From contig RBNJ01000214.1 in NCBI GenBank assembly GCA_003990765.1, positions 1 through 36,529 on the forward strand: 36,529 nt of DNA. Reading direction: 5' to 3'. Below the pieces are notes generated by a model. It made no database searches. It was not told where the DNA came from and was given only the letters and a program-made list of their open reading frames with translations. The position numbers were made by a program, and so were the translations under genes. Source of the stretch: Jimgerdemannia flammicorona. Taxonomy: Eukaryota. Numbering within the stretch: position 1 is the stretch's first letter; each line of letters starts with the position of its first letter. Below are positions 3,710 through 25,491 of the stretch, one piece after another.

Positions 3710-6700
3710 CTAGTTATGAGAACTTTCTTTAGAGTATAGTTTCTTAGCATATCCTTCTGATTTATTAGAGTTGGTGAGAAAGTATATCAATATTATTGTG
3801 GGCTTTCTCTGTATTATAGATAATAGTGATTTTGTAATTCTATAGAATTATGATCTAGCAGACAAGAATTCTAGTAAGTTTCTTATAGTTGAATAGCTAT
3901 TTGAGAGATAGCATATTTAGTTATTAGAGTAAACCTTTTTCTAATAAGATAGTGCTTGAAAGAGATGACTGCTTATATATTATAAGATATTCCAATTTGA
4001 TGTTACTATAGTTGACTTACTACTAGCTGATAGCTCAGCTTGCATAAGCTATTATATAGTACTGCTAGTTAGTTTCTTTTTGAACTAAGACTGCTCTGAG
4101 GCTATCTTTGGAGATATCTATATATAAGATGAATGATTTCTGTAGGTTGGGCTATATAAGAACTAGTGCTATAGTTATATAGTACTTGAGTTCTCTGAAG
4201 GCTAGTTTTTGTAGGTTTGTCTATTTATATAGTACTTCTTTCTTGAGAAGAGTTCAAATTAGTATAGTAATCTGAGCAAAGTTCATAATAAATCTTCTAT
4301 AATAGGATATTAATTTCAAGAATAATAGTATTTCCTTTAGAGTCTTGAATACTGGCCAGTTGTTGATCTTTTTAGTTTTCTTTAAGTCTAAATAGATTTT
4401 GTCTTTTGAAACTATAAATCTAAGAAATTTAAGTTTCTGTTTTCCAAAGTAATACTTCTTGATATTGAGTCTCAGATAATTCTTTCAGATGAGTTAAAAG
4501 AACTCTTCTAGTTATTATAAATATTCCTTAAAAGTTGCTGAAAAGATATTGAAGTTATCTATATAGATAATTAAATAGTAGTAAATTAATAGAATATATA
4601 CTGAGTTTATAATCCTCTAGAGATTAAAGTATATTATAGAGTTCAAAAAGTAGAGATATTTAAATAGTTTTTCTAGGGCAAGAAAGGCTGTTTTCTAAAT
4701 ATCCCTAGAGTCTATAGAGATCTTATAGAATCCTATAAAGAGATTCATACTGCTGAAATATCTAGTATTCTGTAATTGGTCTAGATGATCATCATTTCAG
4801 AGTAAGAAATAAGTATCTTTTTCTGTCACTGAGTTGAGCTTTCTGTAATCTATATAGAGTCTCTATTCTTCTTTCTTTAGTATAATAAGTATAGAGTTAA
4901 CTTAGAGGGTAATAGAGAGTTGAATAACTCTATTGTCTAAGCATTCCTAAATATATTCTTTCTCAAATATCTTTAGATAGTAGGGTATTCTATAAGGCTT
5001 CTGCTGATAGATATTATATTTTCTATATTTATACTATAGTAGTATAATAGATTTATGATATGTTACTATAGTCTATAATAAATATTATCTGATATTTATA
5101 TAGGAGTTCTGCTAGTTGCTACTATTGCTGAGATATTAATTCTTCTTTAATATTGATAGAAGGTTTTACTTTCTCTTGAATCATAGAGAGGTCTTTCCTT
5201 TCTTCTGAGACCTTTTGCCATTTCCTAATAGATTTAATTCATAGACTTCTCTGTATGTTTAATTGAGATAAAGTACTAAGTAGCCTATGATAATTTCTTT
5301 TAACAAAATAAGATTATCTCAGCTTTAATTAATTGCTCAAAAATATACAGGATTCATCTTGTTAGAAAATATGTGACCTTATATATCAAGGTTTCTGAGA
5401 TCTTTATTTAGCTTAAAAAAGTGATTTCTGGGGTCTAGTGGTATAAAGATTTCAAAGATAATATACTCTCCTAAATTCGGGATGAGATTCTTGAGAAGTT
5501 TAACTGATTGGTACTGTACTTAATGGAGTACATTTTTCTTGAAGTAATTGACTTAAAGGAGATATACTTTCTTCTTATCTGAGCTTTTAAATCCTTTAGT
5601 CCACTTTGTGCCTTGGGTCAGTTCAGAGACTTTCTGAAGTTAAAGTATCTCAATCTTTATAAAGACTACTTGAGAAATTTTCTCTTCTCTATAGATTCAA
5701 ATCTATTCAGTACTGCTATTCTTCAAGATGACCTTGATATTACCTATATATCCAGGGTCTATTATTTCTCCTTCTATAGTAACTTCTTATTTTGTAAGTC
5801 TGAATCTTAAGGTCAGTTAGATATAAGTTCCTTGGAGTAGCTATATATCAATTCCTATACTAAGAAGTACTATACTTCTATAGCTAATAGTGTCATCTCA
5901 GAGACTGCAAAGATCATAGCCTTTCTTGTAAGCTTTTGTTGGGAGTCTGGCTTCAGGGTATAGTAGAATATATATACTATATAATGGTCTTACTGAGAGC
6001 AAGCTATTCTTGGGCTGAGGCTCTAGTAGTTATGAGTCTCTATATTATAATATCAAGGTGCAGCCATCTAACTCTAGTAGAGAGGTCTCAGAGATAGTTA
6101 ATTCCTCTTTTTTTCAATAGAGAGGAGGGCTTTCATAAAGTTGATAGTATCTTTTATTCATTTTTAGTAAGCTATATATCTAATGAGAGCTAGAATATTA
6201 TCTTCTAGATTATAGATCTTGAGAGTTCTTTTTGTAGGTTTCTTGGCTTAGTCTTTTTAGATTCTAGTTTGGTCATCTCCTCTCTTGAGTATATATATTA
6301 TAATATCTTGACTGAGATATATCTTCTCATATTAGTAGCTTGGGTGTTTTTTATAGAGATAATATCTCATTACTTAGAAGTACTGTTTTTAGTTATCAAT
6401 ATCTTAATATTTTAGAAATCAGTAATCTTCTCTAGTATAGATAGAAGGAAGAGTAGCTAGAGGCTATACCTTTGTATAGATATAGTATCCTCTTTCATAA
6501 GATCATTTTGTTAATATGATAGTTGTTTCTTGATTTATAGTTATCTATATAATAATTACTAGAGATGCTAATTCAGAGTATCTTTGTCTTTCTTGCTAAT
6601 CCAATAAGTGGCACTAATAGCAGTAGTCTCAGAAAGAGTGAAAGACTATTTAATACTAGCATCTTCTTAGCTAAAAGACTCTTTCTTAATTTTTTTATTA

Positions 6701-8085
6701 TCTTAAAACAATAGTGACTATATTTGATCCTTCTTTAATATTCTAGATATTATCATATTCTAGTAGTATCTAGCAAGAGTTATATTAGAGAATTAGCTCA
6801 AAGAGTTATTCTGATTCAAAAACTTCTTAATTAATTATTTCTTATTCTCAGATCACTTGTACTTTTGTAGTTTTAGTTATAAGTATCTTTGGTGAGAAGA
6901 TATATTTTCTCTTTCTTTTTTTATATTTAGAGTATACTATATCTTATTCTAATAATTTTAGAAAAATTTTTGAGATATTTGTATCTTTTGAAATAGGTGA
7001 GACATTCTTTAGCTATCTAGAAATAACTCTAATTATGATGAGAATTATATTTTATACCCATATATTATCTTCCAGCCTGGCATTTATTAAGTTGATTTAT
7101 GCATTAAGTCTGAGATTATTTTCATCTTCAGATTCTTTCTCTTTCTCTATAGTAGATTCTTTACTGCTGATGTATTCTTCTTAGATAGTAATCTTTTTCT
7201 TCTTCTTAGATTGCTTATAGATAATTATCTTGATTTGATTTTTTTTTTTTCTCTATAGTTAAATTTGAGCATCTATTGATCAATATTAATAACTTATATT
7301 TATTTTGTTCATCTAGTTAGTATCAAGAATTATGTATAAGTAATAGCTTTGATAATAACAACCTTTAAGATAGAAAACTAGATATATCCAAGAGTAATAG
7401 TAATGTTTAATACTTCTCCTAGAGATTGAGTTTAGGCTTTATCTACTACTATGATACTGAGATTAAATAATCTATCAATGGACTACTGAAGGGTATCTAG
7501 GAATCTTTTAGCAATAATATAGATAGCTACTCCTGTATTAAGGGAATTTTTACCTTTTATCCTTTAATATCTCTATATAGATATATGCTGATATGTCTTT
7601 CAGCAGTCTGGATAATAGTTGGTATAGATTCTTGCTGTATAATTAGAACTTGGTCTGTGCTAGATCTGGTAGTTCTTAATAAGAATTATAAGAGAGATAC
7701 TTCTATCTTGGCTTTTTGAATCTTCTTCTGAACTTTATTGTAGATCTTTTAGGGTATAGTCTTTAGAGTATATTTCTTCTTGAGTTTTAAGATTATTGAC
7801 TCTTATTCTTCTTACTCTATCTCTTATCTTCAGATAGAAGATTTCCTTTATAAGTTATAGTTTTGAGAACAAAGAGTAAAGAAGACTAGAGAGATATTTT
7901 AATCTACTCTTCTTTATCTTCTCTATCTTTTTTCTGAATAGTTCTTCTGATTATACTTCTAGATAGTCTGTTTACTAGAATTTCTCTTATCTTAGTAGGT
8001 TAGACTATTTTCTTACAAATAGTCTTAGTTGAATATATGTAGGTCTAGATAGCTTATCTTTCTCTGATATTATTTGGGTTACACA
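3710..8085 (-). mobile_element. pol: heavily degraded Ty3/Gypsy element B (gag C-terminus, PR, unknown domain, dUTPase, RT, RNase H), same family as A
   Basis: 7492-8050 aligns by eye with 105-680. RT motifs RLYIDYRKLNSVT, KTAF and YIDN (~4554-4565). RNase H tail KAHNNIDILS ends ~3775. Confidence 0.85.
5578..5965 (-). pseudogene. dut: dUTPase domain of element B (degraded)
   Basis: Translation PEARLPTKAYKKGYDL...TIEGEIIDPGYIGNIKVILKN...KISQVVF...KGFKSSD matches dUTPase motifs 1, 3, 4 and 5. Confidence 0.8.
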
Positions 8086-8089
8086 AACT

Positions 8090-8623
8090 TTAGACAATAC
8101 TTTCTATAGATTTTTTGGAGAAAAGATAATAGAAACATAGTGATTAATAAGTAATTAGAAAAGTGTACTGGGCAGGATGACTTTAGTGTATTTGACTAAC
8201 AGTATATAAAGAGGAGCTATGGCTTGAGAGAAAGTCTGTTGAGCTCTCATTCAGATAGACATAAGATTGGTAATAATGAAAGGCAAGGTACTGATGGACA
8301 GAGAACTAGAAGAGTGAGCTTTACTGAAAAGGTCAAGACTGAAGGTTAGTTGATAGGCTTAAATAGCTAACTGCAGAAAGATATGAAGAAGGTAAGGGCT
8401 ACAGGGCCTAGAGAGATAGCTCAGAGTAGTAGTAGTAGCAGAACTAAGAGAGTATATCAGAAAAAAAACTTCAGTTTATATTTACTAGTTTGTATTTATA
8501 GCTATTCAGATTCATATTATTTAATATAGTTTAAGTTTACAGCTATTTAGTTTGTATTACTATATATTTCTATCTATGTACTTACTATTTAATTTATGTA
8601 GCTATATCTTCAAAAAAAAAAAA
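8090..8623 (+). mobile_element. possible 3' fragment of a LINE with poly(A) tail
   Basis: Purine-rich, degraded coding-like segment (Trp-rich, YKEELWLERK), T-rich 3' region and A12 at 8612-8623. It truncates element B. No TSD confirmed. Confidence 0.35.
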
Positions 8624-8700
8624 CAAATCTATTAGCAACTATTAGTTAGTATCTATAGTTATTCAAGTTTATATTATGAAATTATAGTTCATATATTATG

Positions 8701-10095
8701 CTTTCTCTCTATATTCTTAGTAATTTAGTATAGAAATTTAAGGCTTAGTTCAAAACTGATAAGCATGGCTATCTAGATAAGAAAAATAATAAACAAATAA
8801 TATTTATTAACAGAATGGATCTGTGACTTAACTATTCTGATTTCCTAAATAATATTCTTAATATAATCAATAAAATCCAGATATTTATTACTATATAGTC
8901 AAGATGGAAAAAAATATAAATTATAGCCAATAAAGGATTATTTTATATAAGTGAAACAGGAATAATGCCATTACTACCTCCAGCTTATAATGAAGAGTTC
9001 TCTGATATTAGAGAATGAGTCTTGATAAAACAAAAAGCTGCTATTAGTACCAAACAAAATACCAAGTACCAAAAGTAATAGTAACTTCTAAAGAAAGCCA
9101 AACAGACTAACAAAGTTAACAAAATACTTTAATAAATTGATATCTCCCTTAGATGAGCTTAGTACTCTAAATGAGTCAATTTAATCCAGATTGGATTCAG
9201 ATTGGATTCAGATTGAATCCCATCTAGATCAACCATTGTTTTGATTTTCAAATTAAATAATTTAATGTTTATATCAATAACTCAATGAATAATTATCCAA
9301 TTTTAATAATCTTAGTGTCATTTGCAAGCCCTTAATAAGGCCTTTCTAATGATACCAAGAATATTAAAATCAAATTAGGTATTGCTGAGCTATTAAGAAA
9401 AATGTTCTTTTGAAGAAATTTTCAAAATTGATAAGTCAAATAATTTCCAAAATTAGCAAGTCAGACATTTTGCTTGATAACTCAGCAATGTATGATCCAA
9501 TTTCAATGTTCTTGATTTTATTAGAAAGGCCTTATTAAGGGCTTTCAAATGATACCAAGATAATCAAAAATTGGATGATTATTCATCAAGTTATTGATAT
9601 AAACATTTAATTGTTTAATTTGGAAATCAAAACAATAGTTGATTTAAATTGCTCTGAATGGAATTTGAATCTCATCTAAGTTGATCCCATTGGAGTTAAT
9701 TCAGATAGAATTTGAATCTGATCCAGATCAACTCATTTGGAGTACTAGATGAGCTCAAGATGTAGTTTCTGGACATAACTCAAAGTCAATAAACTTAACC
9801 AGAATATACTCTGAATTGTATAAATGTGCCACCAATGTTACCTCTAAGAACACTATTATAGAAAATCATCTATTTAGTAAAAATTGTAACATAATAATAA
9901 ATTCAGTACAACAAGACTGAGAAAGAACAAAAAATAGTAATCACCCTATTTGATCAAAATAGCACCACCTTATCTTACTAAGAGAAGAAGGCCAAAAGTG
10001 AAACAATGTAGTCAAAGAAATATATCAGATTTATGATATAACTTCTCACCTAATACTAAATCAGATCCACTATCTATAAGGAGGAAATAAATGAG
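8701..10095 (+). pseudogene. unidentified degraded reading frame split by the MITE
   Basis: A single frame is maintained on both sides of the MITE after removing one TSD (e.g. GLFYISETGIMPLLPPAYNEEFSD; 54 stop-free codons from 9756). Stops are compatible with C>T decay. Confidence 0.4.
9160..9747. mobile_element. hAT-type MITE with long inverted arms
   Basis: TIR tagtactctaaatgagt / actcatttggagtacta, perfect 8-bp TSD GATGAGCT (9152-9159, 9748-9755), internal ~250-bp inverted arms. A younger copy starts at 36373. Confidence 0.92.
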
Positions 10096-10588
10096 ATTTA
10101 ACTTAAATATAAAAAGATGAGATATATATATTTACTATTCAAAATATATCTGTAATAAATCTGTAAACTATACTATAAACACTACTATACTATAAATACT
10201 ACAAATAATAAATACCACAAATACTATATATAAAAATCTCAACTTATATTAATAAAGATTTGGTTTTAATAATAATCTATAAACTCTTATATTAAATATA
10301 ATTTATTATTAAATATATACTTCTAATGTTACTATATACTTCTTAAATAAAAACTAGTCACAATTGCAAGTAATGCTAAGTTTATACAACTGTATTTTCA
10401 GTCTATATACTTTGTTATTTAGTCTAACTATATGTTTACAAATTAAATATATATTTAAAATATTTCTTCTATAATACAATCTATTGTAACGGTGACCCCA
10501 GAATGATGACATCAGCACAGGAGACAGCCTTTCCTTGCAAGCCACCAGATCGAAGCACAAGAAGATCATACAGTATACAAGATGAGCA

Positions 10589-11330
10589 ATGATGACCAAC
10601 TGTGAGTCATTGTGACTACAGCACAAGCATCCTGAAGAATATAAAAGAAGGATCAAGGAACCGCAGTAGCAGCAACCAACAAGGATCACCATTGCCACCA
10701 AATGCCTTCAAATATGGCAGGAGTACGAAATAGGAAACCTCCTCTGCTGGGAGTTCCCAGAAGCCAGCACCCAAGAGCTACAAGATGCCACCCCCATGGA
10801 CCTACGTGAAACAAGGACAGCTAAGAAGATCCATCAGATCTTCAGGCATGCACCATAGTCATCCCCAACTTGGAGTATGTTAGAGTCTCAGACTTCAGAG
10901 ACCTGTCATCCCGCCGTATCAATGCACTAGAAGCCAGAGTAGCTACAGAAGTCCAGTCCACCATCACCCTCAACAGCGAAGAAGTAGAAGACTTCTGGCA
11001 CCCTATCCTCCAGGACAACCCAGACCAATTCCTGCAAGGATTGATCTCAGTATTCCAAGGCCCAAGCATCCGGGTTAGATCTCCCCAAGACTCCACATTT
11101 GTTCCCTATTTTGTGGAAGAGAACTTCATAGACTGGAGAGCTCCAGATCTCCTTGTTCCCGATTTTCCCGCCACTGCCAAACGTGATGACATCTTCGGTG
11201 ATGACGTCATCCCGCGTGACATCGACATACGCGAAGCACGCGAAAATGATGAATTCGCGGATCTCATCTCCTTCAGTGATGAGATGATGATGATGATGAA
11301 GCCCCCATGGTCCTGAACTTTCTGCTCTAA
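10589..11330 (+). pseudogene. U3-encoded ORF of unknown function, 5' LTR copy
   Basis: Contains ORF 10870-11316. Its private lesions (stop + 1-bp deletion ~10856-10861, frameshift in the GAT run) differ from those in the 3' copy. Confidence 0.65.
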
Positions 11331-11347
11331 GTTCTTTGTTACACTGA

Positions 11348-11474
11348 ATAATGCCAGCACCGGTATTCTCATGTAACACCAGATAATGCCAGCACTGGTA
11401 TTCTGAGGTGATGCGAAATCATTCCAGCACCGGCATTTTGATGTGATACTAAATAATGCCAGCCCTGGAACTCA
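11348..11474 (+). repeat. 35-bp tandem repeat x4 with dyad core, upstream of the LTR TATA box (second set 18343-18469)
   Basis: Units start at 11348, 11383, 11418 and 11453. The core AATGCCAG-CA-C(C/T)GG(T/C)ATT is an imperfect palindrome. Confidence 0.85.
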
Positions 11475-11777
11475 GTAGTTTTAGTTATTGGAATTTATAT
11501 TTAGCTTTATATCTTAGCAACCATTGAATTATATTTTGTATAAATACCCCTCTTATTTCCTCTGAAATAAAGTCAGTTCTGGTTCACTTACATACACTTC
11601 CTTGCAAGCAATCTAAGAGATAACAAGACAGTTAAAGATAAGAAGTTTGAGGACTATAAGACCTTGGGAAGGCACTCCAATAAGAACTTGCTTATAACAA
11701 CTTAAGTTAGTCTAAGAGATACACCTTGAAGAGAATCTGGCATATTTGAAGGACTCAGCGACCACTATGTGACAACT

Positions 11778-11795
11778 TGGTGCCCATTGGCTGGT
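11778..11795 (+). promoter_or_regulatory. primer-binding site of element D (tRNA identity unresolved)
   Basis: TGGTGCCCATTGGCTGGT lies 3 nt after the LTR. An identical sequence follows the 5' LTR of element C (20823). Confidence 0.75.
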
Positions 11796-11894
11796 GATTC
11801 AAGACGAATCCCTCACTTTCAAGCTGAAAAATGAACAACCCCCACAACAACTACCCTGACTACAAGAGTCACCCCTGCAAGAATTCAAGACAAG

Positions 11895-14800
11895 ATGGAA
11901 ATGCATCCCCCCACATTCTATGGATATACTACTGAAGAGTCAATCCTGACCTTCATTGAAGACTTTGAACAATTCGCCACCATACGAGCCCTTGGTGTGG
12001 ATGCTCAATTGGCCCTTCTACCAGTCAGCCTCAGAGGACCTGCCAGAGACAAGATCAATGCAGCCACCATTGCTGATGCTGGTGCAGCCAAACTTGTCAA
12101 CATGAAGACCTTCCTCAGAACAACATATTATACTGAAGAGATCAAGCAAGCTCTCAAGGATCAACTCAATACTATCTGCCAGGGACTTAGTGAAGATCCC
12201 AACTCATTCTATACCCGAATTTGCCACCAGATTATCTTGGCTGGCTATAATGACCACCTCAAGGAACAAATAGCGGATTCAACCTTCCTCAAAGGAGTTC
12301 ACCCTGAAATTGCCCTAGCAATCCGGTCTACCCCAGCTGCACTGACCCTTGATCAGAAAGTGGTCTTTGCACAGAGATATTGGACTACCAGACACTATGC
12401 CGAACACTCAATGGAGAAAATAACTGGCATCAAGATGGAGCCATCAAAGCCAACTAGTATCCTACCTGCTACAGTTGTGAACAGACAATCAACCACACCT
12501 ACCCCCAAGACAGCCAAAGCTGACCCAGTGGAAGAACTCGCCAAGCAGTTCGCCGAGATGACTGCACACCTTGGTGATGTTGTTAGAGAAGTCCGAAGCG
12601 CCAATAGGAGACCAGTACAAAGATTTGCAGCTGCTACAGAAGAATGCAATAACATCACATGCTTCAGATGTGGAGAAGAAGGCCACTATGCAAAGAATTG
12701 CATGACTGAAACGAGATGCAAAGCCCAACCAAGCAATGCTAGCAGAACCAGAGAACAAACCAATGCAGTAGTCATTGAGGAGATTGGTGACACTGATGAT
12801 GAAGAATACTACGAGGAGCTTGAATTCTACCCTGCTACTGAAGGTACCAGAACCCAGTCCAAGTCTTATGACAAGAAGAGCAACAGCAAGCCAGTTGGAA
12901 GACCAAAGAAGACCCCAGCTGTCACCATTCAAAGCAAGACCCAACCCAAGGAGATTGATCAAGACATAGAGTTAGATGAAGCTGCCCGCCAAATCATTGA
13001 AGGCACTACTCCAGTCTCAGGAGAAAGCGAAAGCAAGAAGGAACAGAAGCTGTGCAAGACCAAGATCCACCAGTATGACATCTACAAGGACCTCAAGGAG
13101 CAGAAGGTCAATGCCACTTTTGGACAGCTAGCTGAAGTCCCTGCCTTCAGACAGCAGTTGAGAGTAGGACTTGCAACTACTGCCAAGAATCAAGAGTACA
13201 AGATTGTGGAAGCTCACAATGTACAGGAAGAATCCGAGAACTCAGGTGAAGAATCTGAAGACCAGCGCAAGACATCAGCCTATACCCCCTGCCAGATCAA
13301 AGACTGTATCTTTGATGCCATCATTGATACTGGTGCTGGAGGATGCCTCATGAGCAAGAAGGCAATTGACCGCCTAGGTTGGGATATTGAAGAGTCCACC
13401 AAGATGGTCTATGTCACAGCAGACGGTACACGAGCTACCCCCCTTGGCAAAATCCGAGAAGTCCCCATCAAGATAGGAGGAGCTACCATTCCAGTAGACG
13501 TGATTGTTACAAGTGCCACCAACTATGACATCCTCATTGGCAACCAATGGCTTCACAAGGCCAAGGCCATCATTGATCTCAATGCCCAGAAGATGCAGAT
13601 CAACTACAGAGGAAGAAAGGTACAAGTCTCTATCAATGTCCACAAAGGAGTTCTACCAGACATGGAGGAAGGAGATGAAGAAGACACAGAGGTGTTCATG
13701 CACTCGGTGAACAAGAACAAGAGCAAGACACCCAAGCTCACAGATGAGCAGTGGTACAACAAGATCATCGATAGCTATGCCCCTCAAGGAAGATGCCCCC
13801 ATGGTACTAGAATGTACTGCTCCGAACACCTGAATGACTGCTAGTCCTGTATCAGTGAAGTCAGGAAAATCCGCCAACAGAAACATGAGCAAAAAGCCGC
13901 CGAAGCAAAAAGGAAAGCCAAAGAAGATGACCAGCCCCCAGAGCTTCAAGCTGACAGCGACGATGAGGAGGAACAAGAACCAGACATCACTCTCAAGGTC
14001 AAGAAGTTTCACCCCGAAGCCAAGATCCCAGAATACAAGACTGAAGGAGCCATAGGAATGGACCTTACCAGCATTCAAGATGCTACCCTCGAGCCACAGA
14101 CCACCACTCTACTTGGCACCAGAATTGGAGTCAAGTTACTAGAAAACCATGCCGGAATCATCAAGACCAGAAGCAGTCTAGCCAAAAGCAAAATCTCAGT
14201 TGAAGGAGGAGTAATTGACCCTGATTACACTGGCGAGATCTTTCTCATAGTCAGAAATCACAACCACACCACCCCCTTCGAAGTCAAGAAGCATGACAGG
14301 ATCAGCCAGATGCTGATCCACGAAATCAAGAAGCCCAAGATCATAGAAGCCATCGAACTCATCAAGACCAAGAGAGGAGAACAAGGCTTTGGATCTACTG
14401 GAAGAGGAGCCTATGCCACCACCAAGATTACCAAACTTGAGCACAAGAAAGACAAGGATCAGAACAAGCACACATATACCATTGGAGAAAACTTTCCCCT
14501 AGAGGAACAACTCCTCAAGATTCTGCACCAGAATGAAGGAGTACTTGCTACAGACTTTAGGAATATCCACAACCAAGAACCCAAGTACTACCACGAAGTT
14601 GATACCAGTGATACCAAGCCCATCTACCAGAAAGCCAGACCCATACCACCTGCCTACAGAGAGTGGCTGCGAGCTGAACTCAAGGAAATAGAGGAAGCCA
14701 GAATCATTAAGCAAGCTATCAGCCCCTGGGCCTCACCCATTGTCCTAGCCCCAAAGAAAGGAAGCAAGCCTGGAGAGTTTGCACCAAGACTCTGCATTGA

Positions 14801-15923
14801 CTACAGGAAGCTCAATGCCATTACCAAGAAGGATAGGCAGCCCTTGCTGAATATTCAAGAAATCCTTACCACTCTTGGAAGTGAAGCCAAATACTACACC
14901 ACCTTGGATCTGTTCTCAGGCTTTCATCAGATTGGTCTCACTCAAGATGCCAGTGAGAAATCAGCCTTCATTACACCTGATGCCACCTATATCTACCTGT
15001 GAATGCCATTTGGAATGTGCAATGCCCCAGCAAGTTTCCAGCGAATGATAAACAGAGTCTTCAGCAACGAGATTGGAAAATAGCTCTTTGTCTATGTTGA
15101 TGATATGATCATCTTCAGCAACACTGCACGGGAACATATCAATCACATACAGCTAGCCCTCAAGAGGCTCAAGGAGCATGGCCTCTACATCAAGCCCAAG
15201 AAATGCAAGTTTGCAGCTCAAGAAATCGCCTACCTAGGACACCTCATCAATCAGACCGGAATCCACACAGACCCCATGAAGATTGAGGCTGTTGCAGCCT
15301 ACCTGAGACCCAGAACAACCACAGAAGTCCACGCCTTCCTTGGACTAGCCAGCTACTACAGAAGATTCATCAAAGGATACTCTAATATTGCAGCACCTAT
15401 TTACGAGCTACTGAAGAAGGAGACCAAATTCGAATGGACCAAGGAGCGCCAAGAGACCTTCAATGAACTCAAGACCAGGTTGACTCAAGCACCTATCCTC
15501 AGAAGACCAGATTGGAACCTAGAATTCATCCTGCAGACAGATGTAAGCGCCATAGGACTTGGAGCAGTCCTAGCTCAGAAGAAAGATGGACATGAATATG
15601 TCATCTCCTATGCAAGCCAAGGTACCTACGGAGCAGAACAAAACTACGAGTCATGCAAGCTTGAATGCTTAGCAGTAGTTTGGGCAGTAGACAAGTTCCA
15701 CTACTACCTAGCTAGGAAACACTTCACCATTCAAACAGACCACTCTGCTCTTGCCTGGCTATTCCACACTCTGAACCCTAAAGGAATATATGCCAGGTGG
15801 ATCTACAGGCTGCAAGAGTATGACTGTACTGTCAAGCACCGCTCAGGAAAGACCAACACCAATGCCAATGCACTCTCAAGGACACCCCGAAATACTCCCA
15901 TCAAGACTATTCAACATGAATAA
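11895..15923 (+). pseudogene. gag-pol: single-frame gag-protease-dUTPase-RT-RNase H polyprotein with three premature stops
   Basis: ORFs 11895, 14058 and 15105 are in one frame, broken by TAG 13842, TGA 15000 and TAG 15081. Motifs: CFRCGEEGHYAKNC, IDTGA, RLCIDYRKLN, YVDD, TDVSAIGLGAVL, TDHSAL. The original start is probably ATG 11831 (+1 insertion in a C run). Confidence 0.95.
13992..14402 (+). CDS. dut: dUTPase domain between protease and RT (uninterrupted)
   Basis: All five motifs present: GMDL, RSSLA, GVIDPDYTGEI, DRISQM, RGEQGFGSTG. Confidence 0.93.
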
Positions 15924-17163
15924 GGAGCTATACTATGGATTAATCAGCTACCTTGGGCAGTGGAAGATGCCCAACCACCTCGAACCCTGGACAATCACCA
16001 TCATCAACCGGACTTGGAAACAGTTTGAATTAGGCAGCACTACACTCAGAAAAGGAGGAAAGCTAGTAATACCCGAACACAAGAAGTATCAAGTAATGAA
16101 GGAAGTACACGAGCAAGGACACTTAGGAGGAACCAACACATACGACAAGGCAAGAAGAACTATGTGGTGGCCCAAGATGGAAGAAGACCTGTGCCAATTT
16201 GTCAAAGGGTGTGACAAGTGCCAAAAACAGAAACAAGATCAGCAAGACCAGGCACCCGGGTCATCAAGAATTGAGCCTATCCCCTTCCACCACATCGCAA
16301 TAGATATCATTGGACCACTACCAGTAACACTATCAGGAAACCGCTATATTATAGTTATTGTAGACCTCTTCACCAAATGGATAGAGGCAGGAGCATTACA
16401 AGAAGCCAATGCCCTCTCTATAGCCGACTTCCTGCACCAAGAAATCATCTGCCACTACAAGACACCAAAGCAAATCACAACAGACTGTGGAACGGAATTT
16501 GTCAATGGATTCCACGAGATAATGTATCAGAAATACAAGATCCAGCACATCAAGACCACCGCGTACCACCCTCAAGGAAATGGACAGACAGAAAGAACCA
16601 ACAAGACCCTCAAGAACATCCTAGTGAAGATCTCAGAGACATATGAGAATTGGGATAACTATCTCCCAACCACCCTCTCTGTCCTACGAGACATACAGTC
16701 ACAGAGCACACATTTTACCCCAAGAGAGCTGCTCTTCGGAGAAGAAGATTCTGATGGAACCTCAGCCACAAATCTAGACCTAACTTGGAGACAGGTTGAT
16801 GCAGAAATCCAGAGACTACATCAAATCAGGAAGAAGGCTGAAGATTACATCACTAAGTCACAAGTGCTGACAAGGAAGAATGCAGAAAAGAATCACAAGG
16901 CCCTAGAACCCATCCGAATTGGAGAAAAGATTCTACTGTATTGAAATATGGTAGAAGCCTCTTGGTCACGAAAACTGGAGCCCAAATGGGAAGGACCCTT
17001 CTATATGCAAGATATCAAGGGAACTACCTTCTGGCTTAGAAAAATCTCAGGGACCATACTGCCTACCACAGTACATAGGAACAGACTCAAGAAGTACCAC
17101 GAACCTATACAAGAGAAGCAAAACGTGATGATCGCCCGTGAGGTTCTAGTCCGCGAATCGTAA
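15916..17163 (+). pseudogene. integrase (separate reading frame; one internal TGA at 16942)
   Basis: HHCC (HEQGHLG...CDKCQ), DDE core (IDIIGP, TDCGTEF, NGQTER) and GPF module (WEGPF). Confidence 0.93.
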
Positions 17164-17498
17164 CAGCATGTCCCGTGACCAGCAGGCTATCTGTCTGGAC
17201 CATTCTCTAAGGGATATGGCACTGGCAACTACTCATCCGTGAGACTTTCGATGTCAGAGGAGTTCAAACCGTCAACTGATTGGTCAAGATCAGAATCAGG
17301 CCCTTGCTCTATATGAAGGGAGCGACCCTTCACCATCACACCAAAATACAAAGGGAAGATGCCAGCCCATAAACACCACTTTTCGACCCCTTGCCAGAGG
17401 TTATGGGATCAGCAAATTTTTCAGGACTGGACCAATGAATAAGGATGCTCAGGAAGATTCTTATTCAAGAGGAAGATATAACGGTGACCCCAGAATGA
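17151..17498 (+). pseudogene. putative accessory reading frame between integrase and U3 (crosses the PPT)
   Basis: Frame RIVTACPVTSRLSVWTIL*GIWHWQLLIRETFDVRGVQTVN*LVKIRIRPLLYMKG...IRMLRKILIQEEDITVTPE has pol-like codon usage. Its four stops are all TAA/TGA, revertible to CAA/CGA. Confidence 0.45.
17467..17476 (+). promoter_or_regulatory. polypurine tract of element D
   Basis: AAGAGGAAGA immediately before the 3' LTR. Confidence 0.85.
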
Positions 17499-18769
17499 TG
17501 ACATCAGCACAGGAGACAGCCTTTCCTTGCAAGCCACCAGATCGAAGCACAAGAAGATCATACGGCATACAAGATGAGCAATGATGACCAACTGTGAGTC
17601 ATTGTGACCACAGCACAAGCATCCTGAAGAATATAAAAGAAGGATCAAGGAACCGTAGTAGTAGCAACCAACAAGGATCATCATTGCCACCGAATGCCTC
17701 CAAATGTGGCTGGAGTATGAAATAGGAAACCTCCTCTACCGGGAGTTCCCAGAAGCCAGCACCCAAGAGCTACAAGATGCCACCCCCATGGACCTACATG
17801 AAACAAGGACAGCTAAGAAGATCCATCAGATCTTCAGGCATGCACCATGGTCGATCCCCAACTTAGAGTATGTTAGAGTCTCAGACTTCAGAGACCTGTC
17901 ATCCCGCCATATCAATGCACTAGAAGCCAGGGTAGCTACAGAAGCCCAGTCCACCATCACTCAACAGCGAAGAAGTAGAAGACTTCTGGCACCCTATCCT
18001 CCAGGACAACCCAGACCAATTCCTGCAAGGATTGATCTCAGTATTCCAAGGCCCAAGCATCCGGGTTAGATCTCCCCAAGACCCCACATTTGTTCCCTAT
18101 TTTGTGGAAGAGAACCTCATAGACTGGAGAGCTCCAGATCTCCTTGTTCCTGATTTTCCTGCCACTGCTGAACGTGATGACGTCATCGGCGATGACGTCA
18201 TCCCGCGTGACATCGACATACGCGAAGCACGCGAAAACGATGAATTCGCAGATCTCATCTCCTTCAGTGATGATGATGATGATGATGATGATGAAGCCCC
18301 CATGGTCCTGAACTTTCTGCTCTAAGTTCTTTGTTACACTGAATAATGCCAGCACCGGTATTCTCATGTAATACCAGATAATGCCAGCACTGGTATTCTG
18401 AGGTAATGCGAAATCATTCCAGCACCGGCATTTTGATGTGACACTAAATAATGCCAGCCCTGGAACTCAGTAGTTTTAGTTATTGGAATTTATATTTAGC
18501 TTTATATCTTAGCAACCATTGAATTATATTTTGTATAAATACCCCTCTTATTTCCTCTGAAATAAAGTCAGTTCTGGTTCACTTACACACACTTCCTTGC
18601 AAGCAATCTAAGAGATAACAAGACAGTTAAAGATAAGAAGTTTGAGGACTATAAGACCTTGGGAAGGCACTCCAATAAGAACTTGCTTATAACAACTTGA
18701 GTTAGTCTAAGAGATATACCTTGAAGAGAATCTGGCATATTTGAAGGACTCAGTGACCACTACGTGACA
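17477..18769 (+). repeat. 3' LTR of element D
   Basis: TATAAC (TG>TA)...GTGACA, direct repeat of 10485-11774. Confidence 0.97.
17581..18325 (+). pseudogene. U3-encoded ORF of unknown function, 3' LTR copy (~250 aa consensus, acidic C-terminus)
   Basis: ORFs 17704-18069 and 18032-18325 join when a 2-bp deletion (~17960) is repaired from the 5' copy. Confidence 0.65.
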
Positions 18770-19619
18770 CTATATACTTATTTACTAAATATGAATAAAA
18801 AGAATATAAATTCAATCTACTTACTAAATTCTTTCTTACTGAATCATATTTCTCAAATAAGAGTTGTATGTGTACTGTATGAACAATTAAATCTATAGAT
18901 ATAACATTGAACTGCTCAGTCTGCATAGTGACAGCTATTCCTATCTCACAATTATGAGAGATCATATTTTTAGTACTAGAATGCTCAATATCTACTATAT
19001 TATATCACTCCAAGTATATAAGTCAATGAACTTAGCAATCTTACTTGATTTTGAAGAGAAGGTAAACTTGAGCAAAAGAATATTTGTCTATATCTTGTCT
19101 TATCTCAAACTGCTTGTCTATAAGATTATACAATACTACTCAGTCATATTATAGACTTCTATGGAACTGTTACTTATAGCAAATAAGTTGATAAAATATA
19201 GCTAAATCTAATTTTATATCTACATATAAAAGATTCATGAACTCCAATTAATAAAGTGGTAAAGATATTAATCTACAGAGATTAAGAAGAGATATTAGAA
19301 ATATCACAAAAAAAGTTTACCAGCTAACTTAGTATAAATAACTTACTATTGGATTTGAAAGTTTAGAAAGATTTTTTCTATTTACTTAATAATGATATCT
19401 ATTTCCAAATATAAACTGGAGATTATGGAAAAACATCTGAGTAGTAAGTTCAAGATTACATAGTCTAAACAATTTTAAAACTTCATTAATATAGAGTGTA
19501 CCTTCAGAGATACTAGTACTCAGGTTCAGTTATTAGTAAGCTTAAGATATCTGTAAGCTTACTATGTAATTGTAATATGATCAAGCTTGTCCTTAAGTAC
19601 TATTCAGCACTATACTAAC

Positions 19620-20436
19620 TTGATAACTTAGGAAAGAGAATCACATTTGTTTGTTCATCAATATAGTATCTTAACTTTCATACAATGTTAATATTAGTGT
19701 TATCTCTATATTAGTATTATCTGATATATCAAATATTCAAGTTGACTCAGAAATATGCTATAGAGAGTAGTGTTTTTCAAAGTTCAGTAAACTTGGTAAG
19801 ATCTCTATAAACTGCTCTTTTGGTTTATTGAATTGAGATAATAGCATATTTTAATCTGTAAATATTTTTTCAGTAATGAGGTATAGAAGTACTACTCAAT
19901 GAAAATTATGAGGTATTTGACAATACTAAGTGATTTGAAAATCCTTCTCATATATGAGAGTAATATTTTTTAAAAGATTTTTTTTTTTTATTAAAGAGTT
20001 CACAAATAGTTCATGAACTCACTGTAATATATATAATACTTATATACATCAGTTGTTAATATTCAGCTGTAGTTATTTAACTAAGATTTGAAATTCCAGT
20101 AGAGAATTTTTTAAGCTTAGAATATTAAGAAACAAGTTGAATACAAAGTTTAGCTCTAGTTTACCATATATATATCAAATGAACTCTTGATAAGATTAAG
20201 AGTTAGATTGATTTTTTACTTAATAAAGTATATTAGGCATAATTATTAAATAAATATTTATAAGAGATAGTTTCCATAGTATATTCTAGAGTTTGGTTAA
20301 CAGATGATGTAATTGTTAGTAAAAAAATATTTATTTAAAAATAAGCAAAATTAATATATATAGTTAGTCCCACAATCTATGCTCTTGAAGACTCTTTTCA
20401 GCTATTTTATATTTGTCTTTTGAATGATAAATCTGT
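19620..20436 (-). pseudogene. Plavaka-type transposase, C-terminal part (degraded)
   Basis: KLKKFSTGISNLS*ITTAEY*QLM (~20115-20050) and NFEKHYSL*HISEST*IFDISDNTN (~19785-19715) resemble Plavaka motifs (F..Gi..l.q.T..E; NfpK.H...H). Confidence 0.65.
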
Positions 20437-20819
20437 TGTGATGTATGATATGAAATAGAAATAGAAAATAGATATTTAATTATAGTACCTGAATCCAATT
20501 TCCAATTTAGTATAGTCCTTTACTATGGATACTGCATCTAAAACATTATCAGTGAAACTCTTGTTACTTTCATGAATTTCAAATAGGATTTCACATGAGA
20601 TTCTACCTGAGAATTTTACATGAAAAGACTTAATACTTAGCTATATATTTAGTAGCAGAATAAGCACACAAATCTGTATAAATAACTCAGTATTTTAGAG
20701 TAAATAAACCTCAGTCAGATTGAGTCAGTTCAATTCCAAAAATAAGTCTTCTTTATATATCCTTCTTCTCCATTTCAAAATCTTTCCAACTCAACAAGTT
20801 CTATGTCTGCTACATTATA
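20437..20819 (+). repeat. 5' LTR of element C
   Basis: TGTGATG...CATTATA, direct repeat of 28668-29048. TGTATAAAT and AATAAA present. Confidence 0.92.
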
Positions 20820-21776
20820 ACTTGGTGCCCATTGGCTGGTAATTCAAGATGAATCCTCACTTTTAAGCTAAAAAATAAACAACTGCCAGACTGCCATACA
20901 GACTGTCATATTGTACATGGTATTTATCTGCACCATCTACTGTTAATTACTTGTTCCAGTAGTCAGCCTCATTTCTGTGAATCTGTAATAGTTCTAGTTT
21001 CTTTAAGAGAAAGTGGCTAAATCTGGAAGTTCTAGTTGGCCTAATGTAGTTTGAAGAGATACTTAAAGGTTCAAGTGTTCTTGAAGGATTTCTAGAAGAA
21101 AATATTCTGAGCTTTATTCAGACAGAGAACAAAGATATTTATACATAATCTGAAAAGAAAGATCCAGAAGGATCTTGGAAAGAAAGAGAAATGCCAAGAA
21201 ATAGGTTCTTGGCAAAGCTGACTAATACTATTCTATAATATTCCAAAAGGTTCTATAACTAGCTATAATAATATACTTGGCACCAAGGAAAGACAAGAAT
21301 ATTCTAGTAGTGTCTGGGTGCTGAGAGAAGATTTCTAAGCAAGTAGAAGATAGTGGAATATAGTAGAATATTCAAGAAATGACAAGAAAAGACTAACTAA
21401 AAGATGCGAAAATATACTAAGACTAAATATGACTGTGAAATTGTTACATCTCTCTCTCCTTAAGAACCAATGTTCTCATTGAGTTTTTAGGTAATACAAG
21501 ACTAGATATACTTAACCAAAATTTCTCAAACTTGTATCAGTACATTGGTGGGAATTGGCCATCCTCATATAGAGTAGAGGGCCTATTACTAGACTAATCA
21601 ACTGAGAGAGATTCAAACCCAGCTAGTAGCTTCATTTTGGTAGGCTTCTTATTCATTAAATGTTCTGCTAGTTCCAGGGTCCCAAAGTAAACTTCCAATA
21701 TATAAAGTACTGGTCTTTGCTATAGGTTGTCAATAATCCAAGAAAGTCACTACAGAGATTGGGCAATGTATTTTAC

Positions 21777-21926
21777 CTCGAAGTCTTGAACTAGATCTTG
21801 AGAGTTCTTAAGGTTGACCAGTGGTTCTCAGGTAGCATCATATTCAGGATAACCCATCCACTTGACTAGGTATTTGGGACAGTGGTAGTGGATTCGTTTG
21901 TCAAGAATTTTCTCAGCTTTATACTC
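21777..21926 (-). pseudogene. chromodomain
   Basis: EYKAEKILDKRIHYHCPKYLVKWMGYPEYDAT*EPLVNLKNSQDLVQDFE. Confidence 0.92.
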
Positions 21927-24900
21927 GATATAGTCTTCAATAATCACAGGGGCAGAAGGCTTAGAAATTCAACCAGGGTAGAGCAGTAACTGGTTCTAGA
22001 TCTTAAGGTGTAATATATGAAAGATCAGGTGTACTCTTATGATTTCAGGTAGCTTGAGGTGGTAGGAGGATACAGAGACTTGTTCAGTGATCTTGAAAGA
22101 TCTAATATACTTGGGTTGGAACTTGTTTGAAGGGTGGTTGACTTGAGATTATATCTTAAGGTTCTCAGTAGACAGTAGGACTTAGTCTCTAATAGTATAA
22201 GTAACATCATAGTGTTTCTTATCAGCATACTTGGCTTGATACTATTGAGCCTTCTGGAGGTTCATGGTAGCATTCTTGAAAGAGAATAGACTTACAGGGG
22301 TCTCAGGATCTTGACTGTGGAGTAATCAGAAAGAGAAAAGACTAGTAGATGATTTGACAGCATTGTTGTATACAAACTCCATATAAGTCAGATAGTGGTC
22401 CTAATTATCTTGCTCATAAGAAATATAGTTTCTAAGCATTTGTTCTAGGGTTCTGTTCATACACTCAGTTTGTCCATCAGTTTGTGGGTGAAAGGCAGTA
22501 GACATAGCCAATTTGATTCCCAGGGTCTTAAAGAGAGTTTGCCAGAAGTGACTGGTGAACTTGGGGTCATAATTACTGATAATTACTTATGGTAGGCCAT
22601 AGTAATAGAAGATGAACTTAAAGAAGATTCTTGCAATACATATCAAGTATAGTAGCATTGGTAGTGGTTGGTTTAGCAACCATAGTCTTGGTCAGGCAGT
22701 CAATGAATATGATAATAGTATTTGCACCAGATTGAGTTCATGATAGTTGAGTTACAAAGTCCATAGTGATTTGCTCAAATGTCTTGATAGGAATTGGTAG
22801 TGGTTATAGCAAACCAGCAGGTACTTGGTTGGTAGACTTGTTGCACTGACATAGATCACAGCTGGCAACATAGTTCTTGATTTCCTTGACTATGTTTGGC
22901 CAATAGTAGCAATATTGGATGTTCTTGACAGTCTTCTCAATTCCCAGATGATCAGCAAGAGGGGAGTCATGGTGTTCTTATAAAACCTTATAGTGTAGGT
23001 TCATGTTTTCAGATAGGTAGACTTGATCTTGATGATAGATCAGATTGTTCTCAACAATATATATATCCTTGAACTTATTCAAGAAAACTCTAGTAGCAAC
23101 TATATCTTCTTTGTAAGCTTGCTTGATTTGGTCTAGGAATTCTGATGCCAAGGTAATCTGCATGATTGTGGTGAGGTCTGGGCATCTTGATAAGACATCT
23201 GATACTATAAGTATCTTGCCAGGCTTGTAGATAATCATTGAGTTGAAGGTTTGAAGCTTGAGGCTCTACTTGGCTTATAGATACGTATGACAGGGTAGGT
23301 TGGGTGTTGATATACTTGAGAGATTGATGATCAGTAATGACATCAAACTCAACACCTTCTAAATAGTATTGCCAGTGGTCTAGTGCATATATTATTGCCA
23401 GTAGTTCTTTTTCATGAGTAGCTAGCTTTTGTTCAGCTGGGGCTAGCTTGCAGGACTCAAAAGCAATAGGGTGATGTCCTTTGCCATCATCTTGTAATAA
23501 GACTGCTCTAATGGCAAAATTTGATACATTAGTGATAATTATAAATTTTAGGCCTTGATCTGCATTATTCAGAACTGGAGTATGGGTCAGGTAGTTCTTG
23601 AGTTCTTAAAAGGCTTGTTGACAGAAGAGGTCCCAGGTTAGGGTACATAGTGGTCTGAGTGCAGGGCCTTCCTCATGAGGTTAGTCAGTGGCTTGGAATA
23701 TCAGAGAAGTTTCTGACAAAGCAGCAGTAGTAGCCAGCTAGACCAAGGAAGGATCAGAGTTCTGTGAGGTTCAATAGAATGGGCTATTCTTCAATTGCTT
23801 CTATCTTGTGTGGGTCTACTTGAATTCCTTATGCAGAGACAATGTGGCCAAGGTATTTGACTTGTTCTTTGAAGAATTCACACTTCTTGAGCTTAGTATA
23901 GAGCTTGTGTTTTCACAGAATCTCCAAGACTATTTGAATGTATTTGAGATATTCTTCTTTAGTTGTACTAAAGATCAGGATGTCATCAAGATATACCAAC
24001 AGGAAAATAAATAGTTGGTCCTTGAATATCTTGTTCATCAGAGTCTGGAATATGGCAGATGCATTTATGAGACCAAATGCTAAGACCAGGAATTTGTAGA
24101 GTCTAAAGGGGGTCATGAATGCAGTCTTGGAAATGTCTTCTGGTTTGATTTGAATCTAGTGGTATCCTGATATAAGGTCTAACTTGGTGAAGTACTTGGC
24201 ATTCTTGAGAGCATTGAAGATTTGATCAATCAAGGGTAGTAGATAGCAGTTCTTGACAGTAAGTTTGTTGAGTACATGATAGTCTATACACATTCACAGA
24301 GTACTATCCTTCTTCTTGATTAATAAGACTGGTGAGCCATAACGCTATATGGCTCCTCATACAAGTAGTTCTTCTAGTTTCTTCTTGACTGCTTCAATTT
24401 TGAGTGGCAACATACAGTATATATGTTTCTTGGGTGGTATAGCTCCTGGGGTCAGTTCGATTTCATGATCAACTTCTCATATAGATGGTAGACCTGATAG
24501 CTTGTCTGGAAAGACATTCTTGAATTATTCTAGTAGTAACTTAATGCTTTCATTGACTAATAGTCTCTTGTCTTGTTTCTTGGGATAGACCATTATAATA
24601 AAGATATGCATTGCTTTCTTGAGTACTCTCTTGTACTATAGCTAATAGTATTGCAATCTGGGTCTTGCTTGTGGTCTTGTCTGTCTTGATAGTGATATTG
24701 GCTCTATCTTGAAGTAGGGTGACTTCATTCTTGTACCAATCAATATCTGGGTTGTATTTTGTAAGCCAGAGTTTTCCTAATATCAGAGCATGATCTCCTA
24801 GTAGTGCAATCTCAAAGTCTACTTGTTCCCAATATTTCTGGATCTTGATGGGTATTTTGGTGGCAATTGACTCAATGGGGTGCAGAGTACTATCTGCAGT

Positions 24901-25080
24901 GACTATACTATTGTTCTTGAGTACAGGCTTGGTAAGGATCTTGAGGCTTTTGATGAGATTCTGATTGATGAAGTTTCCTGCAGCTCTGCTGTCTATGAGT
25001 ACTTGAACTTCTTTTCCTTTGACTAGGCCTTTGAAAATGATCATATCTTGAGCTCAATTTTCACTAAGACTTGCTGCTTG

Positions 25081-25491
25081 ATCAGTGCTGCCAAAATCTT
25101 TTTAATCTTGTTTAATTTCAGGGAGTTCTTGGACTTCTGTAATCTTGAGTTGACTGGCTTTTTCTAGGATCATTTGTATAACTCAGTCTCCTTTCTTGAC
25201 TATGTAGTCTTGATCCTTCTGATTGATAAGTAGAACTTGAACTTGTCCTCAAAAGTCTGAGTCAATGATACCAGTGCCTATGTCTAAATGATGTTTGATA
25301 CTGAGTTCTGATTATGGTGCAATTCTGGTATAATGTCCTTCAGGACATTGAACTGCAATTCCAGTAGGCACCAGAGTTCAGCCCTTGGCTGGAATAGTGA
25401 CTTGTTTTACTGAGTGTAGGTCAAGACCTATGGCTCCTTCTGTTTAATATTGAGGGGTCTGGGCCTTTAGATGAAGCTTCTTGACCTTGAG
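25081..25491 (-). pseudogene. dut: dUTPase domain between gag and protease in E
   Basis: LKVKKLHLKAQTPQY*TEGAIGLDL...VPTGIAV...RIAP*SELS...GIIDSDF*GQVQVLLIN...KGD*VIQM...FGST (frameshifted). Confidence 0.9.

What the first reader, a model, noticed from the sequence alone, without database searches (positions are those of the whole stretch)
5575..25491. All three Gypsy pol regions carry dUTPase, in different architectures, with a hint of module exchange
Seen: B has PR-[~1 kb]-dUTPase-[~450 bp]-RT, D has PR-[Cys/His linker]-dUTPase-RT, and E (chromovirus) has gag-dUTPase-PR. The D and E dUTPases begin almost alike (LKVKKFHPEAKIPEYKTEGAIGMDL vs LKVKKLHLKAQTPQY*TEGAIGLDL; first 15 nt identical) despite different lineage and position. 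Established: dUTPase is known in betaretroviruses (gag-PR junction), non-primate lentiviruses and ERV-L, and only sporadically in LTR retrotransposons. Inference: repeated capture or lateral swapping, suggesting host-specific pressure from uracil in retroelement cDNA.
Basis: partly seen in the sequence, partly recalled or inferred. Interest (0 to 1): 0.7.

Follow-up and report, generated by a model that had tools for sequence, protein, structure and literature searches.

The report
dUTPase-carrying Gypsy retrotransposons of a fungus
Three decayed jumping genes in this fungal DNA each carry a uracil-clearing enzyme (dUTPase) in layouts already described in other fungi; the domain was inherited rather than swapped between them, but it is unusually common among this genome's Gypsy-type elements.

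Summary
The three dUTPase domains are real (Pfam). There are two layouts, not three. B and D belong to one non-chromoviral lineage (PR-linker-dUTPase-RT); E is a chromovirus (gag-dUTPase-PR). Both layouts were described in Postia elements (PMC2864245). Module exchange is not supported: D and E are 40% identical overall, each groups with its own RT relatives, and a D+E clade is rejected (p-AU 0.0004 and 0.0002). The shared N-terminus is no closer than unrelated, free-standing dUTPases are to D. No recent capture from the host gene is seen. What is less ordinary is prevalence: 26 of 31 Gypsy RT regions in a 600-kb sample carry dUTPase (the other 5 are cut), against 0 of 80 outside chromovirus-like loci. 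The domain is under purifying selection (dN/dS about 0.14-0.25). Best reading: at least two old acquisitions, inherited vertically, keeping dUTP low during reverse transcription. A host-specific uracil pressure is unproven: the host has dUTPase, UNG and thymidylate synthase genes, and a Copia family here lacks dUTPase. The scan noted dUTPase-Gypsy elements before, in this genome and in another.

The parts
5574..5972 (-). dUTPase of element B, decayed (7 stops)
   Evidence: PF00692 64 bits; profile match 5574-5969
6587..6691 (-). Cys/His motif in B's PR-dUTPase linker, decayed (coordinates approximate)
   Evidence: 45 bits to a profile of B, B2, P0137 and P0418 linkers; place read
7261..7536 (-). 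protease remnant of B
   Evidence: 15 bits with own PR profile; no Pfam hit
3975..5009 (-). RT (4350-5009) and RNase H (3975-4208) of B, decayed; no integrase found after it
   Evidence: RVT_1 28 bits, just under the cut-off
10485..11774 (+). 5' LTR of D (TG...CA), preceded by CTAT
   Evidence: 97.0% identical to the 3' LTR over 1288 columns, 37 transitions and 2 transversions
11835..13841 (+). gag (zinc knuckle) and protease (13278-13604) of D
   Evidence: PF00098, PF13975
13794..13850 (+). Cys/His motif in D's PR-dUTPase linker; holds a stop at 13842 in this copy
   Evidence: pattern found in 19 of 35 D loci scanned, some of which lack the region; no Pfam family
13992..14402 (+). dUTPase of D, open, all five motifs present
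   Evidence: PF00692 99 bits; aligns to solved trimeric dUTPases; 12 of 12 checked motif positions
14610..15833 (+). RT and RNase H of D, same frame as gag-PR-dUTPase, stops at 15000 and 15081
15917..16944 (+). integrase of D in its own frame, start codon overlapping the RNase H stop; no chromodomain
   Evidence: PF17921, PF00665; frame comparison across families
17477..18769 (+). 3' LTR of D, followed by CTAT
20983..21452 (-). 3' LTR of E (ends approximate)
   Evidence: 90.6% identical to 26558-27024
21780..21950 (-). chromodomain of E
   Evidence: PF00385 42.5 bits
22323..25032 (-). protease (24715-25032), RT (23778-24440), RNase H (23309-23623) and integrase (22323-22992) of E, decayed
   Evidence: PF08284
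25078..25491 (-). dUTPase of E, between gag and protease and in their frame, decayed (6 stops)
   Evidence: PF00692 107 bits; frame
26558..27024 (-). 5' LTR of E (ends approximate)

Best explanation
B, D and E are dead copies of three high-copy Ty3/Gypsy families of an Endogonales-type fungus. They descend from two lineages that each took up a trimeric-type dUTPase long ago: a non-chromoviral lineage (D, D2, D3, B, B2) with the domain between protease and RT behind a Cys/His linker, and a chromoviral lineage (E, E2, E3, E4) with it between gag and protease. The position has since been inherited with the RT; later replacement of the domain in place cannot be excluded. Shown: domain, position, reading frame, purifying selection, prevalence. 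Inferred from retroviral precedent: the domain is made as part of the Gag-Pol polyprotein, packaged in the particle, cut out by the protease, and hydrolyses dUTP to dUMP where cDNA is made. RT then inserts less uracil, and host uracil-DNA glycosylase has less to nick before integration.
For: RT tree splits the two layouts. On RT+RNase H+IN (631 columns), E, E3, E4 and outside P0171 form one clade (SH-aLRT 98) nested among 40 dUTPase-less relatives, B and D form another (100), and the trait changes twice. dUTPase groups D+D2+D3 (100/96) and E+E2 (100/100) mirror RT groups. Under the mixture model one origin per lineage is not rejected (p-AU 0.30 non-chromoviral, 0.25 chromoviral, 0.54 for B+B2). 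dN/dS of the domain: 0.22 among D copies (the window's and six sampled by position), 0.25 in B, 0.14 D vs D2, 0.21 E vs E2, like RT (0.11-0.28); one small set gave 0.43 (B2, 3 pairs). Motif residues kept in 34-36 of 36 D copies (29 of them were picked by protein similarity). Same layouts in outside metagenome proteins P0125, P0137, P0418 (PR-dUTPase-RT) and P0169, P0171 (dUTPase-PR). Host has UNG exons at two loci. Role in non-dividing cells is established for lentiviral dUTPases (PMC4531489, passages).
Against: Deep dUTPase branches are unresolved (138 columns). Under LG+G4, one origin for the non-chromoviral set was rejected (p-AU 0.017) and for all elements of this genome (0.019); the chromoviral set gave 0.07. 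E and E2 have a cellular-type motif 2-3 region, one residue longer than in D, B, B2 and E4 (alignment), which suggests a replacement. In one tree B grouped with E3 and P0171 (SH-aLRT 91, long branches). No activity, expression or packaging was measured.
Confidence: 0.72

Rival explanations
1. D and E exchanged the dUTPase module (template switching between co-packaged RNAs); in a weaker form only the first 75 or so nucleotides were converted long ago.
For: First 25 residues are 61% identical between D and E families against 33% in the rest; D vs its RT sister D2 is 48% there. Identical-codon share at shared residues is 0.53 against 0.40 in the rest. Only 3.7% of 8,018 outside pairs of like divergence reach 60% in this stretch. 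A deep common origin of the D and E clades is not rejected (p-AU 0.37).
Against: D+E as a clade is rejected (p-AU 0.0004; 0.0002). Outside the first 25 residues D is 56% to D2 and E is 59% to E2, but D to E 33%. The pair was picked after the fact from 45 family pairs, where 3.7% predicts 1-2 such cases. Unrelated free-standing dUTPases match D's first 25 residues at 74-75% (5 listed, from a set found by similarity to D). 305 of 2,163 outside pairs have some 25-residue window at 65% or more. Codon sharing of 0.53 lies inside the range of other pairs.
Confidence: 0.1
2. More than two captures: the slot is old, but its occupant was replaced several times from different donors, giving up to six dUTPase lineages (D group, B, B2, E group, E3 group, E4).
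For: Between-group identity is only 29-42%, no higher than to the host-type enzyme; LG+G4 tests reject single origins; motif 2-3 length differs within the chromoviral clade; D leans to bacteria-like solo proteins with modest support (91/55; SH-aLRT 83-84). Independent sources were proposed for the Postia elements (PMC2864245).
Against: Mixture-model tests do not reject one origin per clade. No element dUTPase falls inside the cellular eukaryote clade (100/94) or has a close donor among 120+55 database hits or 80 viral loci (best unrelated hit 46%).
Confidence: 0.3
3. A host-specific uracil pressure (high dUTP/dTTP in resting spores or slow-growing hyphae, plus active UNG) filters Gypsy lineages so that only dUTPase carriers proliferate here.
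For: 26 of 31 Gypsy RT regions in the sample carry dUTPase and none of the other 5 is an intact dUTPase-less copy. Two unrelated lineages show it, against 0 of 80 outside chromovirus-like loci and 1 of 53 protease-bearing outside polyproteins. Two UNG loci.
Against: Two founding lineages are only two independent events. The host has an intact intron-bearing dUTPase gene (L182) and thymidylate synthase. A Copia family with recent copies has no dUTPase (2 copies of one family read, of 1,188 candidates). C-to-T changes are symmetric on both strands and CpG-led, the pattern of genomic methylation, not of cDNA damage. Carriers with the same layouts occur in outside data of unknown host.
Confidence: 0.3
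4. The domain is kept for a non-catalytic job (trimerising scaffold, binding a host protein).
For: Precedent in bovine immunodeficiency virus (PMC4531489, passages; PMC4261571, title only). E and E2 have no motif-3 tyrosine in 59 of 59 copies (phenylalanine in the copies printed).
Against: All five motifs, the C-terminal loop included, are kept in D; most are kept in E2 and B. Tyr-to-Phe is a conservative change, recalled from active betaretroviral enzymes (memory, no call).
Confidence: 0.06

Closest known systems
PosPlaTy3-3 and PosPlaTy3-5 of Postia placenta (PMC2864245; section 5 and passages read)
   Same: Fungal Gypsy elements with dUTPase at the N-terminus of Pol (as E) or between PR and RT (as B and D); several positions within one genome; independent acquisition already proposed.
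   Different: There 'several' elements; here nearly all sampled Gypsy copies. B and D lack a chromodomain and have a Cys/His linker and a separate integrase frame. Sequences were not compared: the supplements are .DOC files that I could not read.
Juno, Vesta and TelKA LTR retrotransposons of bdelloid rotifers (PMC5408684; passages read)
   Same: dUTPase between PR and RT in three of four lineages of one genome, that is the same near-saturation; an extra zinc knuckle beside it in Juno.
   Different: Animal host; one position only; the knuckle follows the dUTPase rather than preceding it.
Tmt1 of Tuber melanosporum and the Phanerochaete chrysosporium dUTPase elements (not seen; cited in PMC2864245 and PMC5408684)
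   Same: Fungal Gypsy elements with dUTPase; PR-RT position according to PMC5408684.
   Different: Single families; not compared here.
Retroviral dUTPases (non-primate lentiviruses, betaretroviruses; PMC4531489, passages read)
   Same: Polyprotein-borne dUTPase; needed in non-dividing cells; E's gag-dUTPase-PR order matches the betaretroviral one (order recalled, also given as 'between gag and RT' in PMC5408684).
   Different: These elements are Ty3/Gypsy, with no env domain found by Pfam; no retroviral sequence was placed in my trees.

Membership tests
Ty3/Gypsy LTR retrotransposon | Two LTRs with TG...CA ends and a target-site duplication | tested here: met
   D: LTRs 97% alike, 5' LTR begins TG (3' copy TA), both end CA, CTAT on both flanks. 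E: LTR pair 90.6%, duplication not established. B: no LTR pair found.
Ty3/Gypsy LTR retrotransposon | Order PR-RT-RNase H-IN with RVT_1-type RT | tested here: met
   D and E; B has PR-RT-RNase H and no integrase in the window
Chromovirus | Chromodomain at the integrase C-terminus (E) | tested here: met
   PF00385 42.5 bits; E groups with chromodomain-bearing P0171
Chromovirus | Chromodomain at the integrase C-terminus (D) | tested here: not met
   No chromodomain hit in or after D's integrase; separate RT clade
Named fungal Gypsy clades (Tcn1, MarY1, Ylt1 and others) | Placement with reference elements in an RT-IN tree | not testable with these tools
   No named reference element came back from any search
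Trimeric dUTPase (PF00692) | Family score over cut-off and five conserved motifs | tested here: met
   intact in D; broken by stops in the window copies of B and E
Trimeric dUTPase (PF00692) | Homotrimer that hydrolyses dUTP and spares dTTP and UTP | not testable with these tools
   Needs an enzyme assay; no structure or complex prediction was run
Recent capture of the host dUTPase | Element domain nested among fungal cellular dUTPases | tested here: not met
   17 cellular enzymes form a clade (100/94) without any element domain; element-host identity 29-43%, host-human 69%

The most novel reading that the evidence does not exclude
This fungus imposes a uracil barrier on reverse transcription strong enough that its Ty3/Gypsy complement is reduced to dUTPase carriers: two unrelated lineages, with several independently recruited dUTPases, make up essentially all copies (some 8,000 or more domains). 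That would be a genome-wide case of host nucleotide metabolism selecting which retrotransposons can spread, paralleled by bdelloid rotifers and perhaps Entomophthora muscae.
Probability: 0.3. Interest if true: 0.6.

Novelty: new member of a known kind. Interest (0 to 1): 0.35.

Why it matters
dUTPase is called rare in retrotransposons, and its role there was left open in PMC2864245. A genome where it sits in nearly every Gypsy copy, in two unrelated lineages and under purifying selection, gives a natural test of whether host dUTP levels and uracil repair decide which retroelements proliferate. The layouts themselves are not new, and the proposed module swap does not hold.

Tried and rejected
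Whole-domain D/E swap: rejected by two AU tests. Three layouts: B and D are one. Host lacks dUTPase: the first host-like hit (L091) had damaged motifs, but it is an intronless retrocopy of an intact three-intron gene (L182). Host lacks UNG: PF03167 found only a TDG/MUG-like exon, but TIGR00628 found UNG exons at two loci, below the whole-gene cut-off. Recent host, bacterial or viral donor: none close. The RT-only tree scattered the dUTPase-bearing chromoviruses among dUTPase-less ones; the longer RT+RNase H+IN alignment joined them, so I dropped 'three separate chromoviral gains'. The representatives search was crowded with proteins holding several RT stretches and is a poor control. The ESM Atlas gave only dUTPase clusters. 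No tRNA gene in the window; the primer tRNA was not identified. Strand-biased cDNA damage: not seen. Paper searches found no survey of dUTPase-bearing Gypsy elements in Mucoromycota; the library lacks most subscription papers.
Full report
OBSERVATION. The window holds three Ty3/Gypsy pol regions: B (minus strand, about 3975-7540, heavily decayed), D (plus strand, 10485-18769, LTRs 97% alike, CTAT duplication) and E (minus strand, about 20983-27024, LTRs 90.6% alike, nested between another LTR pair). Each has a dUTPase above the Pfam cut-off: D 99 bits and open, E 107 bits with 6 stops read as X, B 64 bits with 7. D keeps all 12 motif positions I checked and aligns over its length with solved trimeric dUTPases. 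All three window copies have broken polyproteins.

HOST. The genome is 231 Mb in 35,354 contigs. The best database hit to its cellular dUTPase is labelled Jimgerdemannia flammicorona (96% to the retrocopy used as query), followed by Umbelopsis and Mucorales, so the host is an Endogonales-type fungus (Mucoromycota).

TWO LAYOUTS, NOT THREE. The 30 best loci for each window domain were read. PR precedes the dUTPase in 28 of 30 D loci (the other two are short or rearranged). All 30 E loci have dUTPase directly before PR. In B loci PR lies at the edge of the cut-out, 1.3 kb upstream. B and D fall in one clade on RT and on RT+RNase H+IN (SH-aLRT 100). A profile of the Cys/His motif from B, B2, P0137 and P0418 linkers scores the window's B linker at 45 bits and D's sister D2 at 8.9 bits, against a best of 3.3 among 400 shuffles; D itself scores only 2.8 and -0.5, within the shuffles, but D and D2 linkers are homologous (E 2e-31). 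D, D2, D3, B and B2 copies put integrase in a frame of its own; E3, E4 and an E copy do not. B is therefore D's layout with longer spacers.

NO SWAP BETWEEN D AND E. The domains are 40% identical, the same as E to the host-type enzyme. In the dUTPase tree D groups with D2 and D3 (100/96) and E with E2 (100/100), as their RTs do. Forcing D+E together is rejected under LG+G4 (p-AU 0.0004) and under the mixture model (0.0002). The N-terminal likeness is real at family level: 61% over 25 residues against 33% in the rest, and 3.7% of 8,018 outside pairs of like divergence reach 60% there. But it was picked from 45 family pairs, unrelated free-standing dUTPases match D's first 25 residues at 74-75%, and 305 of 2,163 outside pairs show some window at 65% or more. 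An old, short conversion is not excluded; a deep common origin of the D and E clades is neither shown nor rejected (p-AU 0.37).

HOW MANY GAINS. With 40 dUTPase-less outside loci added, E, E3, E4 and P0171 form one clade (SH-aLRT 98) and the trait changes twice. The RT-only tree had scattered them, and a tree with all carriers together is not rejected (p-AU 0.23), so two gains is the most economical count, helped by the two different positions, not a proven one. Whether each lineage kept its first dUTPase is open: LG+G4 rejects one origin for the non-chromoviral set (0.017), the mixture model does not (0.30; chromoviral 0.25). No element domain nests among 17 cellular eukaryotic enzymes (100/94; element-host identity 29-43%). 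No close donor appeared among 120 and 55 listed database proteins or 80 viral loci (best unrelated hit 46%).

PREVALENCE. The PF00692 search gave 8,265 first-look candidates, of which 150 were scored and all 150 passed; candidates are not copy numbers. All 150 scored D hits are 91% or more identical to D; all 150 scored E hits hold stops. I took 60 stretches of 10 kb at spaced positions from contigs over 10 kb. They hold 30 dUTPase hits and 32 RT hits. One RT (L128, 37 bits) was set aside as non-Gypsy, DIRS-like by eye. Of the other 31, 26 have a dUTPase upstream; 5 are cut or interrupted before that place, and 4 of these match carrier families. Shorter contigs were not sampled. Outside controls: 0 of 80 metagenome loci with chromovirus-like RT carry dUTPase, 52 of them with protease and 800 or more bases upstream in view; 1 of 53 protease-bearing proteins among 150 RT hits does, and it is one of the nearest relatives of the B/D clade. 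Neither control is a random sample, and records of this genome's close kin may have been left out.

FUNCTION. The domain is under purifying selection: dN/dS 0.22 among D copies (the window's and six sampled by position), 0.25 in B, 0.14 for D vs D2 and 0.21 for E vs E2, like RT; B2 gave 0.43 on 3 pairs. It is in frame with gag and protease in D and E. By analogy with lentiviral dUTPases, which matter in non-dividing cells with low cellular dUTPase (PMC4531489, passages), it most likely lowers dUTP inside the particle during cDNA synthesis. This step is inferred, not shown.

IS THE HOST SPECIAL? It has an intact dUTPase gene with three GT-AG introns (L182), UNG exons at two loci, a TDG/MUG-like exon and thymidylate synthase. 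A Copia family with a 1,522-residue open frame has no dUTPase (2 copies of one family read, of 1,188 candidates); the fragment beside one copy belongs to a Gypsy element it jumped into. C-to-T differences are equal on both strands and ranked CpG > CpA > CpC > CpT. None of this points to an unusual uracil load, but stage-specific nucleotide pools cannot be read from sequence.

WHAT IS KNOWN. PMC2864245 (section 5 and passages read) reports dUTPase at the N-terminus of Pol, at its C-terminus, or between PR and RT in Postia Gypsy families, cites Phanerochaete and Tuber elements (papers not seen) and proposes independent sources. Its supplements are .DOC files I could not read; they may give the share of carrier families. 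PMC5408684 (passages) finds dUTPase between PR and RT in three of four rotifer lineages and calls it rare in retrotransposons. bioRxiv 10.1101/2023.09.13.557621 (passages) lists PF00692 among TE-related domains enriched in Entomophthora muscae, a Ty3-inflated genome; its supplements were closed. PMC7928374 (passages) has no mention of dUTPase. Searches found no account of these elements in Mucoromycota. Earlier notes of this scan describe the same families in this genome.

VERDICT. Observation confirmed; exchange not supported; layouts known. New member of a known kind. The near-saturation of one genome's Gypsy elements by two carrier lineages is the part worth a follow-up. Interest 0.35.

Noticed in passing
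window 15917-15923 (+); also L129, L131, L133, L136, L158, L168 and others: Integrase is a separate frame whose start codon overlaps or adjoins the RNase H stop in D, D2, D3, B and B2; outside P0137 and P0418 end after RNase H. Already noted several times by this scan. One paper search (listing only) showed no obvious description.
   Followed up: partly
window 10825-11316 and 17936-18325 (+): D's 1.29-kb LTRs hold an open frame of 163 and 129 residues with no Pfam match for the first; earlier scan notes report LTR-borne genes in this genome.
   Followed up: no
L091:1400-2115 (-) and L182:134-1147 (+): An intronless retrocopy of the host dUTPase gene, 97-99% identical to the gene's exons; the 13 clear substitutions listed are all at CpG. 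Host dUTPase mRNA is thus still being reverse-transcribed, the raw material for capture.
   Followed up: partly
P0126-P0175: Many outside polyproteins with Copia-type domains (PF07727, PF13976, PF25597) carry a dUTPase; hosts unnamed. One search (listing only) showed no paper devoted to this.
   Followed up: no
window D LTR pair and D, E, F copies: Besides CpG, CpA and CpC sites mutate several times faster than CpT on both strands (e.g. 0.20, 0.16, 0.06 for D vs L131), hinting at non-CpG methylation or a RIP-like process in a mucoromycete.
   Followed up: partly
L185, L186: Two distinct UNG-like loci in the genome.
   Followed up: no
window 20437-20819 and 28668-29048: An LTR pair (91% alike) encloses element E; its primer-binding site is nearly the same as D's, but no coding domain of its own was found.
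   Followed up: no
E and E2 families (L031-L060, L092-L120): The motif-3 tyrosine that screens the sugar is absent in 59 of 59 copies (phenylalanine in those printed).
   Followed up: no
window 9160-9750 and 36373-36529: A long inverted-repeat element (arms about 81% complementary), with a related copy inserted in the RT of L144.
   Followed up: no
B and E3 families (L072, L081, L155, L160): Their dUTPases share an N-terminal TKAH motif and group weakly in two trees, across RT clades; the best remaining hint of an old exchange.
   Followed up: partly
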